Source: a virus (lineage: Duplodnaviria; Caudoviricetes). Taken from it: 64,000 bases of DNA. A program made the translations under genes and the position numbers. The notes under the pieces are model-generated. The model made no database searches and was not told where the DNA came from. It saw only the letters and a program-made list of their open reading frames with translations. Below, piece by piece: positions 27,045-30,363 of this stretch. Position 1 is the first letter of the stretch. Each line of letters opens with the position of its first letter. The stretch is from positions 1-64,000 of IMG/VR virus record IMGVR_UViG_3300033498_000048; one strand, given 5' to 3'.

Positions 27045-27313
27045 AATATTTTTTAAATAATCATTGTTTCTATATAATAACCTTTAATTGGTATTATTTA
27101 AAATTGTTAATTTGAACTCCAACCGTCATGTTGGAGAATAAGCTAGTCAACACAAATCTTGACGTATCAGAGGACTATATTACACACTGTGACATCAATA
27201 TCCTAGAAATGCTGAGTTCTATCAATTTTAAATAATAACACTATCACCACAAGTTTTTTAAATTATACATTGGCAGTTAATGATTGTCAACATCTAATTT
27301 CAATACTAATAAA

Positions 27314-27350: not shown

Positions 27351-27500
27351 TTTTAAAAATACTAGGAATTTGCGAATATAGAGATTTTACACGCTCTACC
27401 ATTAAGCTAAATGACCCTCGTATTGGTCATTAGAGGAATCGAACCTCTATCATGTTCGCCGAATGAAGTAACTATATTCTACACCATAGTATTTTTAAAA
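27351..27500 (-). ncRNA. yrlA: YrlA-type Y RNA immediately downstream of the Ro60 gene
   Basis: 14-bp end stem; TGGTGTA-GAATATAG-TTACTTC; T-arm AGAGG-TTCGATT-CCTCT; closed acceptor AATGACC/GGTCATT; D-arm TAGCTTAATGGTAGAGC; CTATATTC. Confidence 0.82.
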
Positions 27501-27595: not shown

Positions 27596-29014
27596 CTAAC
27601 TATCTTCACTTTGATGGTTATCTAACCCTTCCATTGAAGCAATGTAAGTCAAAAATGAACTAGACCAACCACTGATTTCAGATGTCCACACACCTTTATA
27701 ATTAACACCATGCGAATGTGAACTTACATCAATAATGTAATTAAACTTCCCAAAAGGTTTTGGAGGTGCTTTTACTCTATCACAGTCCTGTGAGTCACTA
27801 AAGATAATAATCCTATCAAAATCTGTACCAACATTCAATTGACACCAATCTAAACATTGTCTAGTGAATATGCCACCTCCACCAACTTTAACCCTTTCAT
27901 CTTCAATTTGTTTTACTAAACCAAATCCTTTGTTTGGATATTTAATATGGTTGTGTTTGCCAGTATAAGTAGAATCAACCCCAGCAGTAATGACAAACTC
28001 AAAATCTTCACACATATTAATCGCAGCTATTGCCATTGCTGTTCCAGCATCCAATCGAGTGAACTCTGAATCTTTAGATGAAATCTCACTTCGCATTGAA
28101 CCAGATACATCAAGAATAATCAAAGACTTTCCAGTTAATTTACTTACATTTGCATAGCTACGGAACATTACTTCTTCAATATCACGCTCAAATTCAGGTG
28201 AATATCTAACTGCTTTAAAGTAATCTAAAGGAAGTAACATTCCAGTTTTAACATTAGCAATAGCGTTTTGAATAACAAGTCTATCAACTCCAGCAGCTTT
28301 CATGTTTCTGATATTGCGCAACAATGCTAATCCACCCAATTTGTTTTCTTGGATTAATCTTGTCCATGATTCTTTTTTATCAGCTCCACTAGACAATGCA
28401 ACTTCCCATGTATCTGGAGTTTGTAACGTGTTTTCAGCCAATTTTTTAAAGCAATCTGCTTGTTCTTGTGTTACTGTTTTTGGGTGTACCATAAACATGA
28501 CATCACGCAATTTAACTGCATTACCAGTACCACGATATTTAGCTAAAGAATATTCGTTAAAATTCAAAAACGCTTTCGCTATTCCACGTTTCATAGCACT
28601 TGGTAGTGGACGTTTACCTCCATTCCAGTACAATGAAACCAAATCTGATAACATATCAGCACGAGTACAAACTTTAGGAATGACATCTGCAATCAATGTA
28701 CGATGTGATTCATGTTTAGCCATTTCAACAATCATCAAAATTGGAACATGACGTAACTTTTGCATAACACGACATTCAATAGCCAATTTAGCAACTTCTT
28801 CTGGTTCACATAGTGGAATCAACACTTTAATCTGCGATGCAACTTCTAAACCATCGACATACGCATTGTTTTCCCACAACAAACAAGCTAACACTAATCT
28901 TCTCAATGTTAAGATATTGCTTTGTTTAGCTGCTACATTACCCATTCCACCTGCCAATCGAACGTCTTGTTCAAAACGGTTATCAACAGCTTTAGTGTTC
29001 ATTTTTTTAGACAT
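27596..29014 (-). CDS. rsr: Ro60/TROVE-domain RNA-binding protein with C-terminal vWA domain
   Basis: LRRLVLACLLWE, LRHVP, RADML, F.EYSLAKY, VKLRDVMFMVHPK, TWEVALS, ALLRNIRNM; MIDAS LDVSGSM and IIFSDSQ; GAGG RBS before ATG 29014. Confidence 0.92.
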   Translation of the reverse strand: MSKKMNTKAVDNRFEQDVRLAGGMGNVAAKQSNILTLRRLVLACLLWENNAYVDGLEVASQIKVLIPLCEPEEVAKLAIECRVMQKLRHVPILMIVEMAKHESHRTLIADVIPKVCTRADMLSDLVSLYWNGGKRPLPSAMKRGIAKAFLNFNEYSLAKYRGTGNAVKLRDVMFMVHPKTVTQEQADCFKKLAENTLQTPDTWEVALSSGADKKESWTRLIQENKLGGLALLRNIRNMKAAGVDRLVIQNAIANVKTGMLLPLDYFKAVRYSPEFERDIEEVMFRSYANVSKLTGKSLIILDVSGSMRSEISSKDSEFTRLDAGTAMAIAAINMCEDFEFVITAGVDSTYTGKHNHIKYPNKGFGLVKQIEDERVKVGGGGIFTRQCLDWCQLNVGTDFDRIIIFSDSQDCDRVKAPPKPFGKFNYIIDVSSHSHGVNYKGVWTSEISGWSSSFLTYIASMEGLDNHQSEDS

Positions 29015-29032
29015 TTTCAATCCTCATTACAT

Positions 29033-29066
29033 TAGGAACAATCTAATCGTTACATTAGACACCATA
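29033..29066 (-). promoter_or_regulatory. minimal Y-RNA-like motif in the Ro60 mRNA leader (putative autoregulatory site)
   Basis: TA-TGGTGTC-TAAT-GTAACG-ATTA-GATTGTTCC-TA reproduces the shared internal loop, 7 nt upstream of the GAGG RBS. Confidence 0.6.
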
Positions 29067-29316
29067 AATATTCATATATTGCTTTAATGTGGCTTCCACA
29101 GTTGCCACATTCTATCAATTAATTCTTTGCCAAAAGCTTGTTGCATATCTGTTAAACAATCACTACGCATACAACGTAATTGTGATAATGTTTCAAAGTC
29201 AACAGTAACTTGGGTTATATGTATTATCTATCAACACATTAAATCCGTCTACTTCCACTTTATCCACCTTTATCAGTTTAATTTATTTCCATGTCACTCG
29301 ATAAATGATTAATTTG

Positions 29317-29389
29317 TCACCCAGGTGGGACTTGAACCCACAACCCTTCAATTAAAAGTCGAATGCTCTTCCTATTGAGCTACTGGGTG
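29317..29389 (-). tRNA. tRNA-Lys(TTT)
   Basis: CACCCAG/CTGGGTG, D stem GCTC/GAGC, arm TTCGA-CTTTTAA-TTGAA. Confidence 0.9.
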
Positions 29390-29459
29390 ATAATTGAATC
29401 ACTAAACGTATCTTTTTATTATAGATACTTCCTAACTATCTGTCAACTGACTATTCACT

Positions 29460-30063: not shown

Positions 30064-30363
30064 TCATAATTTTAAATTATAGCTATATTGAGGTTCAATG
30101 TCAACTTTTTTCAAACAATCTGCTGTTTTTTCTGACATGAATAGACAATCGCCCCGTCTGATTATTTGTCCATCTTCCATGACATCTTGTGTATCGACTC
30201 CAAATAAATCATCACAAAATCCATCTATTTCTTTTCGATACTCGTCACTAAATTCAACATCTTTCGATATTCTAAATCGAGATGCTTGAATTGGTCTAAC
30301 AATATGAACACTAAGTCCACCATAAGTTAAACCATTCTTATGTGTAGATTTGGGTTGGTTCAT
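30064..30363 (-). CDS. hypothetical protein
   Basis: 99-aa ORF, 4-nt coupling with the upstream ORF. Confidence 0.6.
   Translation of the reverse strand: MNQPKSTHKNGLTYGGLSVHIVRPIQASRFRISKDVEFSDEYRKEIDGFCDDLFGVDTQDVMEDGQIIRRGDCLFMSEKTADCLKKVDIEPQYSYNLKL

What the first reader, a model, noticed from the sequence alone, without database searches (positions are those of the whole stretch)
29014..29066. Minimal copy of the Y-RNA motif directly upstream of the Ro60 ribosome-binding site: probable autoregulation
Seen: the Ro60 leader reads TA-TGGTGTC-TAAT-[GTAACG]-ATTA-GATTGTTCC-TA, 7 nt before the GAGG Shine-Dalgarno and ATG 29014. It is the same TGGTG/GATTGTT(T/C)C internal loop found in the six candidate Y RNAs, shrunk to 34 nt with no effector module. 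Inference: free Ro60 could bind its own mRNA and repress translation, keeping protein matched to Y-RNA abundance, as ribosomal proteins do with rRNA-mimic operators. I do not know of this being described for Ro60. The copy also independently points to this loop as the protein-binding determinant.
Basis: partly seen in the sequence, partly recalled or inferred. Interest (0 to 1): 0.88.

Follow-up and report, generated by a model that had tools for sequence, protein, structure and literature searches.

The report
Truncated Y-RNA stub in Ro60 leader
Just upstream of a giant phage's Ro60 gene sits a 43-base hairpin that copies the Ro60-gripping part of the phage's own Y RNAs, so Ro60 might sense and limit its own synthesis, but the nearest relatives lack the hairpin and nothing yet shows that it works.

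Summary
Observation confirmed. On the minus strand, 29066-29033 reads exactly as described. It ends 7 nt before the ribosome-binding site GAGGA and ATG 29014 of a TROVE/Ro60 gene.

A covariance model built only from 27 mini-Y RNAs of other metagenomic loci finds five of the six candidate Y RNAs in the window (36-55 bits). It also finds the leader element (29071-29029, 17.8 bits, E about 0.01); the best chance hit scores 12.7 bits. A strict motif-plus-stems pattern occurs three times in the 305-kb genome: two Y RNAs and this site. The element is therefore a real Y-RNA Ro-binding module without its apical part.

- The closest Ro60 relative (71% identity) keeps only the 3' half plus the ribosome-binding site and lacks the hairpin.
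- Nine relatives at 58-61% identity have no stub.
- In about 20 more distant loci a complete Y RNA lies 8-89 nt upstream of the Ro60 start. A Y-derived relic at this position is therefore the natural null.
- Free-RNA folding favours pairing of the motif's UCCU with the ribosome-binding site over the Y-like fold.

Earlier notes of this scan report similar hairpins in other rsr leaders. I did not test them. I found no paper describing Ro60 autoregulation.

The parts
29418..29446 (-). Consensus sigma-70-type promoter (TTGACA-17-TATAAT, 12/12), the probable start of the transcript that carries tRNA-Lys, the leader and Ro60
29316..29389 (-). tRNA-Lys(UUU), first gene of the probable transcription unit
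   Evidence: Rfam tRNA, 69.8 bits
29072..29315 (-). 244-nt spacer or 5' UTR of unknown nature. No Y-model hit, no convincing ORF, and no significant similarity to the two mini-Y RNAs that occupy this position in the nearest relative
29029..29071 (-). Y-RNA stub: lower stem (29071-29065 / 29034-29029), bulged U 29064, GG 29063-29062 facing CC 29036-29035, 5' motif UGGUGUC 29064-29058, upper hairpin 29060-29054 / 29047-29041 with loop GUAACG 29053-29048, 3' motif GAUUGUUCC 29043-29035
   Evidence: (R1 17.8 bits)
29034..29037 (-). UCCU inside the 3' motif. In the free-RNA ensemble it pairs with the Shine-Dalgarno AGGA (probability 0.5-0.84), in competition with the Y-like GG:CC pairing
29021..29025 (-). 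Shine-Dalgarno GAGGA, 6 nt upstream of the ATG
   Evidence: the same GAGGATT-AAAATG is found in L010
27596..29014 (-). Ro60/TROVE gene (472 aa)
27358..27493 (-). YrlA-like Y RNA with a tRNA-like domain, about 100 nt downstream of the Ro60 stop codon; about 90% identical to its counterpart in L010
   Evidence: Rfam YrlA 27 bits; R1 51.7 bits

Best explanation
Shown. The element is the Ro60-binding half of a mini-Y RNA: terminal stem, bulged U, GG:CC pairs, the UGGUG / GAUUGUUCC loop and a second stem. The apical GUUACUUC or tRNA-like module is replaced by a 6-nt loop. It sits in the 5' UTR of the phage Ro60 mRNA. Its 3' strand ends 3 nt before the Shine-Dalgarno and 15 nt before the ATG.

Inferred origin. 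It derives from, or was rebuilt on the remains of, a Y RNA gene. In this Ro60 clade such genes very often lie directly upstream of the Ro60 ORF.

Inferred function, the step I commit to with modest confidence. The stub still offers Ro60 a binding site in cis. When Ro60 exceeds the supply of free Y RNAs, it binds the leader, and the roughly 50-kDa ring next to the ribosome-binding site hinders 30S binding. This would be negative feedback that Y RNAs can titrate. By my own recollection (no source checked here) the geometry resembles the ThrRS operator of E. coli thrS and the operators of ribosomal protein genes.

A complication. In the free RNA the motif's UCCU prefers to pair with the Shine-Dalgarno. 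Ro60 binding would therefore have to capture the less stable Y-like conformer, and the sign of the effect is uncertain.
For: - Exact anatomy and distance to the ribosome-binding site.
- An independent covariance model built from 27 mini-Y RNAs of other loci, with 17 of 17 pairs covarying, scores the stub at 17.8 bits, E about 0.01. It aligns the lower stem, both motif halves and the upper stem, and skips only the apical 36 model positions.
- The strict descriptor hits only this site and two Y RNAs in the whole genome.
- The stub keeps every family-invariant letter of the Ro module: the G of GGUG, the UU, and the C of UUCC.
- The family 5' motif GGYGWA corresponds to the published Ro-recognition motif GNCGAAN0-1G (PMC4201824).
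- The only strong promoter is upstream of tRNA-Lys and no terminator intervenes.
- In six more distant loci a complete Y module ends 8-28 nt from the Ro60 start codon: L030 8, L046 16, L051 18, L052 18, L007 20, L003 28. A Ro-binding stem abutting the Ro60 ribosome-binding site is therefore a recurrent layout.
- The 3' half plus the ribosome-binding site is the only significantly conserved block of the upstream region between the window and its 71% relative (score 34, 0 of 500 shuffles).
Against: - The nearest relative L010/L011 lacks the hairpin and gives no model hit in its leader.
- Seven relatives at 58-61% have no Y-like element in their leaders.
- The lower stem is weak: three A-U pairs, or six with a bulge and a G-U.
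- The Y-like fold (-4.8 kcal/mol) loses to hairpin plus anti-SD pairing (-7.5), and GG:CC pairing has probability below 0.05.
- The 5' motif has C where the 27 family members have A, U or G.
- The two halves of the stub form a 15/19 direct repeat (p about 0.02), so the hairpin may be a by-product of a local duplication.
- There is no RNA-seq and no binding data.
Confidence: 0.4

Rival explanations
1. Relic. The stub is the decayed remainder of a Y RNA gene that once lay directly upstream of Ro60, perhaps reshaped by a local tandem duplication. It no longer binds Ro60 in any useful way. Only its 3' half (UUGUUCCUAAU) is under selection, as part of the translation-initiation region, where UCCU acts as a weak anti-Shine-Dalgarno.
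For: - Y RNAs immediately upstream of Ro60 are the commonest layout in this clade. They are also known from M. smegmatis, D. radiodurans and Thermus phage phiLo (PMC4201824, PMC12135203).
- The 71% relative keeps only the 3' half plus the ribosome-binding site. There these fold into an interrupted 11-bp hairpin that sequesters the Shine-Dalgarno, at -5.2 kcal/mol.
- In the window UCCU:AGGA pairing has probability 0.5-0.84.
- There is a 15/19 direct repeat inside the stub.
- No stub is seen in nine relatives at 58-61%.
Against: - The 5' motif, the bulged U, the GG:CC register and a perfectly paired upper stem flush with both motif halves are all intact.
- With the 3' half held fixed, I estimate by hand (not computed) about 2e-4 as the chance of the rest arising in random sequence.
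- A neutral relic as old as the split from L010 (71% aa) should have drifted.
- UCCU:AGGA is only 4 bp (-2.2 kcal/mol), too weak to explain an 11-nt conserved block alone.
Confidence: 0.35
2. Processing or stability element, or a very small stand-alone Y-like RNA. The stub marks the mature 5' end of the Ro60 mRNA after tRNA-Lys is cut out. With or without bound Ro60 it protects the message from 5'-end-dependent decay. Alternatively it is excised as a roughly 43-nt RNA.
For: - Ro60 appears to be co-transcribed behind a tRNA and ahead of a YrlA, so the primary transcript must be processed.
- M. smegmatis YrlA and YrlB are processed from one precursor upstream of rsr (PMC4201824).
- The upper hairpin is the most robust local structure of the leader (P 0.65-0.92).
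Against: - The lower stem is too weak for a stable free RNA.
- There is a 244-nt spacer between the tRNA and the stub, so the stub is not at the tRNA cleavage site.
- The hairpin is not more stable than shuffles (z -0.9).
- No expression data are available.
Confidence: 0.12
3. Positive switch. Ro60 binding stabilises the Y-like conformer (GG 29063-62 with CC 29036-35). This frees the Shine-Dalgarno from the UCCU anti-SD, so Ro60 or Y-RNP status activates translation rather than repressing it.
For: The two conformers are mutually exclusive and differ by only about 2.7 kcal/mol. The Shine-Dalgarno is predicted to be mostly paired in the free RNA.
Against: - The anti-SD helix is only 4 bp.
- A bound ring 3-7 nt from the Shine-Dalgarno would more plausibly hinder than help the 30S subunit.
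- Positive feedback has no obvious logic for matching the protein to its RNA partners.
Confidence: 0.08
4. Chance resemblance in AT-rich non-coding DNA.
For: - The genome has 31% G+C and short words recur often.
- Two pattern scans of IMG/VR with parts of the leader returned only unrelated coding hits, showing how easily such words occur.
Against: - The strict descriptor gives 3 genome hits against 0.55 expected, and the odds of one landing within 60 nt of the Ro60 start on the right strand are about 5e-5.
- The independent model scores it above all background hits.
Confidence: 0.01

Closest known systems
Bacterial and phage Y RNAs (YrlA/YrlB, Yrn1/Yrn2; Rfam RF02553; Chen et al. 2014, PMC4201824; Thermus phage phiLo Yrl1/Yrl2, PMC12135203)
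   Same: Same strand and immediate neighbourhood of the Ro60 gene. Same Ro-binding architecture: terminal stem, a GNCGAA-like 5' motif (here GGUGUC; family consensus GGYGWA), an internal loop and a second stem. Y RNAs lying upstream of Ro60 and sharing its transcript are documented.
   Different: No apical module (no GUUACUUC and no tRNA-like domain). Only 43 nt. Very weak terminal stem. It lies inside the mRNA leader 3-7 nt from the Shine-Dalgarno, not as a separate gene. It is not detected by Rfam YrlA.
Translational autoregulation by molecular mimicry: E. coli ThrRS on the thrS operator (tRNA anticodon-arm mimic just upstream of the SD), ribosomal proteins S8, S15, L1 and L20 on rRNA-mimic operators, and the phage MS2 coat protein hairpin at the replicase start (from my own knowledge; no source was checked here)
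   Same: A shortened copy of the protein's normal RNA ligand placed next to the ribosome-binding site of its own mRNA. The normal ligand would compete for the protein.
   Different: For Ro60 no binding, repression or conservation has been shown. Here the mimic does not include the SD or the AUG, and the closest homologue lacks it.
Earlier notes of this scan on Ro-site-like mini-hairpins in rsr leaders of other genomes (e1-2694084, e1-2641530, e1-3984127)
   Same: The same idea: a miniature copy of the Ro-binding helix next to the Ro60 start codon, in one case said to be conserved across cyanobacteria, an actinomycete and phages.
   Different: Different genomes and motif variants (CGAA-type). 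These are AI notes that I did not re-test. In my own sample of this clade the stub is lineage-specific.

Membership tests
Ro60 / TROVE protein (the gene downstream) | TROVE (HEAT-repeat ring) domain | tested here: met
   Pfam PF05731, E 7.6e-14. 4392 homologues at E<=1e-40, all TROVE. The genome scan finds this single locus.
Ro60 / TROVE protein (the gene downstream) | Full-length similarity to a solved Ro60, including the C-terminal vWA region | tested here: met
   phmmer against PDB: Thermus phage phiLo Ro60 9KOP/9L5Y, E 4e-19, query residues 37-462 aligned to 38-484. The MIDAS residues were not inspected.
Y RNA (YrlA/YrlB-type) | Encoded on the same strand within 4 kb of the Ro60 gene | tested here: met
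   Minus strand, ending 15 nt upstream of the Ro60 ATG. Criterion from PMC4201824.
Y RNA (YrlA/YrlB-type) | Ro-recognition motif on the 5' strand (GNCGAAN0-1G; in this clade GGYGWA) facing a conserved 3' strand (GNYUGUUCC) | tested here: met
   5' GGUGUC matches 5 of 6 positions of the clade consensus; the last letter, C, is not seen in 27 members. 3' GAUUGUUCC matches fully. R1 aligns both.
Y RNA (YrlA/YrlB-type) | Long terminal stem formed by the 5' and 3' ends | tested here: not met
   Only 3 A-U pairs, or 6 pairs with a bulge and a G-U. Pairing probability below 0.02 in context. True Y RNAs in the window have 10-14 bp.
Y RNA (YrlA/YrlB-type) | Apical effector module (tRNA-like T/D arms, or at least the conserved GUUACUUC segment) | tested here: not met
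   Replaced by the 6-nt loop GUAACG. R1 skips 36 model positions. No Rfam YrlA hit.
Y RNA (YrlA/YrlB-type) | Accumulates as a discrete RNA bound by Ro60 | not testable with these tools
   No RNA runs hold this phage.
Autoregulatory mRNA operator by ligand mimicry | Copy of the protein's RNA ligand in its own mRNA, at or next to the ribosome-binding site | tested here: met
   transcript context.
Autoregulatory mRNA operator by ligand mimicry | Conserved in the leaders of homologous genes | tested here: not met
   L010/L011 (71%) lack the hairpin. L012, L063-L066, L076 and L077 have nothing. L013 and L075 have full mini-Y RNAs. More distant loci have complete Y RNAs 8-89 nt upstream.
Autoregulatory mRNA operator by ligand mimicry | The protein binds the operator and lowers translation | not testable with these tools
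   Needs EMSA, toeprinting and reporter assays.

The most novel reading that the evidence does not exclude
A phage Ro60 controls its own translation through a minimal Y-RNA mimic in its 5' UTR. The leader is bistable: the motif's CC pairs either with the upstream GG (Y-like fold, which Ro60 can bind) or with the Shine-Dalgarno. Free Y RNAs titrate Ro60 away from the leader, so protein output follows Y-RNA supply. This would be the first autoregulatory circuit described for any Ro60. It would also define the minimal Ro60-binding determinant of bacterial-type Y RNAs.
Probability: 0.3. Interest if true: 0.75.

Novelty: new variant of a known kind. Interest (0 to 1): 0.5.

Why it matters
Ro60-Y RNA particles are conserved from bacteria to humans, and Ro60 is a major lupus and Sjogren's autoantigen. 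How cells or phages match Ro60 to its RNA partners is not known. A natural 43-nt minimal binding module next to the ribosome-binding site would give a directly testable feedback model. It would also be a ready-made minimal substrate for binding and structural studies of bacterial-type Ro60.

If it is only a relic, it still records how Y RNA genes decay and are reshaped at the position where this clade usually keeps them. The comparative work also shows that arrays of tRNA-less mini-Y RNAs beside phage Ro60 genes are very common, covary strongly, and are largely invisible to the current Rfam model.

Tried and rejected
1. IMG/VR pattern scans with leader words (TTGTTCCTAAT..TGAGGATT; ATGGT..TTGTTCCTAAT..TGAGGA). 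These gave 11 and 9 loci, all chance matches inside unrelated coding DNA and no relatives.

2. The idea that the 244-nt spacer between tRNA-Lys and the stub holds decayed copies of the two mini-Y RNAs of L010. The best local alignment score was 17, below the shuffle mean of 20, so I dropped it.

3. Expression evidence. No RNA run holds the phage. Laying contigs of four DNA runs gave only near-identical fragments. The one covering the leader stops at 29056 with one difference, so it offers no covariation data.

4. Rfam. No family matches the stub. YrlA matches only two of the full Y RNAs, below its gathering score.

5. Promoter inside or downstream of the stub. None was predicted. A weak 9/12 site at 29251-29223 also lies upstream.

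6. A terminator or attenuator role. The hairpin is not followed by a T run and no terminator is predicted.

7. The leader hairpin of the GC-rich relatives (L004 group). It is a strong stem followed by an SD-sequestering stem, but it is not recognisably a copy of their Ro site.

8. Coding explanations. Only 22-73-aa ORFs without ribosome-binding sites overlap the region on either strand.

9. Two reviews on Ro60 (PMC10870794, PMC6542706) are not held in the library.

Full report
SETTING

The window is the first 64 kb of a complete 305,782-bp phage genome with direct terminal repeats (IMG/VR record, 31% G+C). A near-identical DNA holder is a microbial-mat metagenome, and fragments occur in freshwater metagenomes.

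Between 17.7 and 29.4 kb the minus strand carries 17 tRNA genes. It also carries a TROVE/Ro60 gene at 29014-27596 (Pfam E 7.6e-14). The nearest solved structure is Thermus phage phiLo Ro60, E 4e-19.

Several Y-RNA-like genes lie on the same strand:
- 18879-18743
- 20440-20353
- 21936-21826
- 22860-22721
- 26092-25948 (Rfam YrlA 37 bits, below the gathering score)
- 27493-27358 (YrlA 27 bits)

The minus strand reads TA-TGGTGTC-TAAT-GTAACG-ATTA-GATTGTTCC-TA at 29066-29033. It is followed by 7 nt, GAGGA (29025-29021), 6 nt and ATG 29014.

A strict descriptor (TGGTG, TTGTTYC, a flanking lower stem of at least 3 bp and an inner stem of at least 4 bp) matches three places on both strands of the whole genome: this one and two Y RNAs. 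Sixty simulated genomes gave a mean of 0.55. That puts the chance of a hit within 60 nt of the Ro60 start on the right strand near 5e-5.

AN INDEPENDENT TEST

From loci fetched with the Ro60 protein I collected 27 tRNA-less mini-Y RNAs. None came from the window. Their alignment has this consensus, in order:
- lower stem
- UGGUGAA
- 8-bp stem
- GUUACUUC
- variable region
- return strand of the 8-bp stem
- GCUUGUUCC
- return strand of the lower stem

All 17 predicted pairs show compensatory changes. This includes the pair between the first G of GG and the last C of UUCC (17 G-C, 10 A-U). The 5' motif is the clade's version of the published Ro-recognition motif GNCGAAN0-1G (PMC4201824).

The covariance model built from this alignment (R1) was run over the window with filters off. 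It gave these hits:
- five Y RNAs at 36.6-54.6 bits
- a partial seventh candidate at 23315-23259 (18.8 bits)
- the leader element at 29071-29029 (17.8 bits, E about 0.01)
- the next, unrelated hit at 12.7 bits

The alignment matches the lower stem, bulged U, GG, 5' motif, four upper-stem pairs, 3' motif and CC, and skips the 36 apical model positions. The element is therefore a true Ro-binding module without an effector module.

TRANSCRIPT CONTEXT

A perfect TTGACA-17-TATAAT promoter lies at 29446-29418, 20-odd nt before tRNA-Lys (29389-29316). No terminator-like site is predicted between 27000 and 30500. No promoter is predicted between the stub and the ATG.

The most likely transcript is therefore tRNA-Lys, a 244-nt spacer, the stub, Ro60, and possibly the YrlA-like RNA at 27493-27358. 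The next perfect promoter (27290-27262) lies beyond that RNA. The stub should be part of the Ro60 5' UTR.

RELATIVES

- Closest Ro60, 71% identity (L010 and L011, two samples with identical leaders). It has a TTGACA promoter and two mini-Y RNAs. Its leader keeps TTGTTCCTAAT, the Shine-Dalgarno and the first codons, but has no hairpin. R1 with filters off finds nothing there.
- The block TTGTTCCTA..ATGTxATGAGGATTxAAA is the only significantly conserved stretch of the upstream region (score 34; 0 of 500 shuffles reach it). The rest, including the window's spacer against L010's two mini-Y RNAs, is not.
- By contrast, the YrlA-like RNA downstream of Ro60 is about 90% identical between the two phages, with compensatory T-arm changes.
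- Nine relatives at 58-61% identity have no stub. L012, L063-L066, L076 and L077 keep their Y arrays downstream and have plain leaders. L013 and L075 have complete mini-Y RNAs 33 and 79 nt upstream.
- In about 20 more distant loci, one to seven Y modules lie upstream on the Ro60 strand. The last one ends 8-89 nt from the start codon, and within 8-28 nt in L030, L046, L051, L052, L007 and L003.

Two conclusions follow. A Ro-binding stem abutting the Ro60 ribosome-binding site is a recurrent layout. It is also a known one: M. smegmatis, D. radiodurans and phage phiLo have Y RNAs upstream of Ro60. The truncated form, however, is specific to this phage.

FOLDING

- In the context of the leader the upper hairpin forms with probability 0.65-0.92.
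- The Y-like GG:CC pairs and lower stem have probability below 0.05.
- Instead, UCCU (29037-29034) pairs with the Shine-Dalgarno AGGA (29024-29021) at probability 0.5-0.84.
- Energies are -4.8 kcal/mol for the Y-like fold and -7.5 for hairpin plus anti-SD.
- In L010 the conserved block forms the 5' arm of an interrupted SD-sequestering hairpin (-5.2 kcal/mol).
- The 43-nt element alone is not more stable than shuffles (z -0.9).
- The two halves of the stub are a 15/19 direct repeat 23 nt apart (p about 0.02 by shuffling), so a local duplication may have produced the hairpin.

INTERPRETATION

It is shown that this is a Y-RNA Ro-binding module, stripped of its apical part and embedded in the Ro60 leader next to the ribosome-binding site. 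Everything about function is inferred.

I put about 0.4 on a cis-acting Ro60 site that feeds back on translation. The most likely form is steric repression that Y RNAs can relieve by competition.

I put about 0.35 on a relic whose 3' half survives as part of the initiation region (a weak anti-SD). About 0.12 goes to a processing or stability role, about 0.08 to a positive switch, and about 0.01 to chance.

The relic reading is favoured by three things: the lack of conservation, the weak lower stem, and the unusual C in the 5' motif. The functional reading is favoured by three others: the intact register of every Ro-module element, the retention of all invariant letters, and the recurrent geometry in other phages.

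LITERATURE AND EARLIER NOTES

The two key papers contain no mention of autoregulation, and a full-text search found none for Ro60.

Earlier notes of this scan report similar Ro-site-like hairpins in other rsr leaders, one said to be conserved across cyanobacteria, an actinomycete and phages. So the scan has raised this idea before on other DNA. I did not test those claims and do not count them as evidence.

VERDICT

I class it as a new variant of a known kind (a Y-RNA module used, or left, in cis). Interest is moderate and hinges on a simple binding experiment.

Noticed in passing
R1 scores it 18.8 bits, E about 0.005. It lies just downstream of the odd tRNA-Asn.
   Followed up: partly
L001-L077 (about 45 metagenomic or viral loci), alignment A2, model R1: A very large family of tRNA-less mini-Y RNAs (65-105 nt), built as lower stem, UGGUGAA, 8-bp stem, GUUACUUC, variable region, GCUUGUUCC. 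They form arrays of 1-7 copies on the Ro60 strand, upstream or downstream. All 17 of 17 pairs covary. Rfam YrlA does not capture these short forms.
   Followed up: partly
L001/L002/L027-L029 (about 2945-2997), L033/L034, L075 (1122-1200): In several relatives a terminator-like hairpin with a T run sits between the last Y RNA and the Ro60 Shine-Dalgarno, with no room for a promoter. This suggests that Ro60 is made by read-through of the Y RNA terminator.
   Followed up: no
window 27358-27493 (-) compared with L010:2548-2683: The YrlA-like RNA downstream of Ro60 is about 90% identical between the two phages, with compensatory T-arm changes. Its 3' Ro motif differs, however: CGCAAAUUCC in the window against GUCUGUUCC in L010.
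   Followed up: no
window 29072-29315 (-): The 244-nt spacer between tRNA-Lys and the stub folds partly into a Y-shaped structure (UGAUAA...UUAUCA stem around 29271-29178). It matches no model and has no convincing ORF. Its nature is unexplained.
   Followed up: partly
window 29024-29065 (-): Direct repeat AUGGUGUCUAAUGUAACGA / AUUGUUCCUAAUGUAAUGA (15/19, 23 nt apart). Each copy contains an AUG-UAA start-stop pair. L010 has its own 14/19 repeat at the homologous place.
   Followed up: partly
window 27262-27290, 29418-29446, 30076-30104 (-): Three perfect 12/12 TTGACA-17-TATAAT promoters within 3 kb, together with GAGG-type ribosome-binding sites. They point to a host with a canonical sigma-70 and SD system. 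The 58-61% Ro60 relatives differ: their leaders are A-rich and lack an SD.
   Followed up: no
L012:5011-7104; L077:2187-2836: RNA-repair genes follow the Ro60-Y RNA cassette in relatives: an RNA ligase plus an AAA_33 kinase-like gene in a 285-kb contig, and a Hen1-type methyltransferase in another.
   Followed up: no
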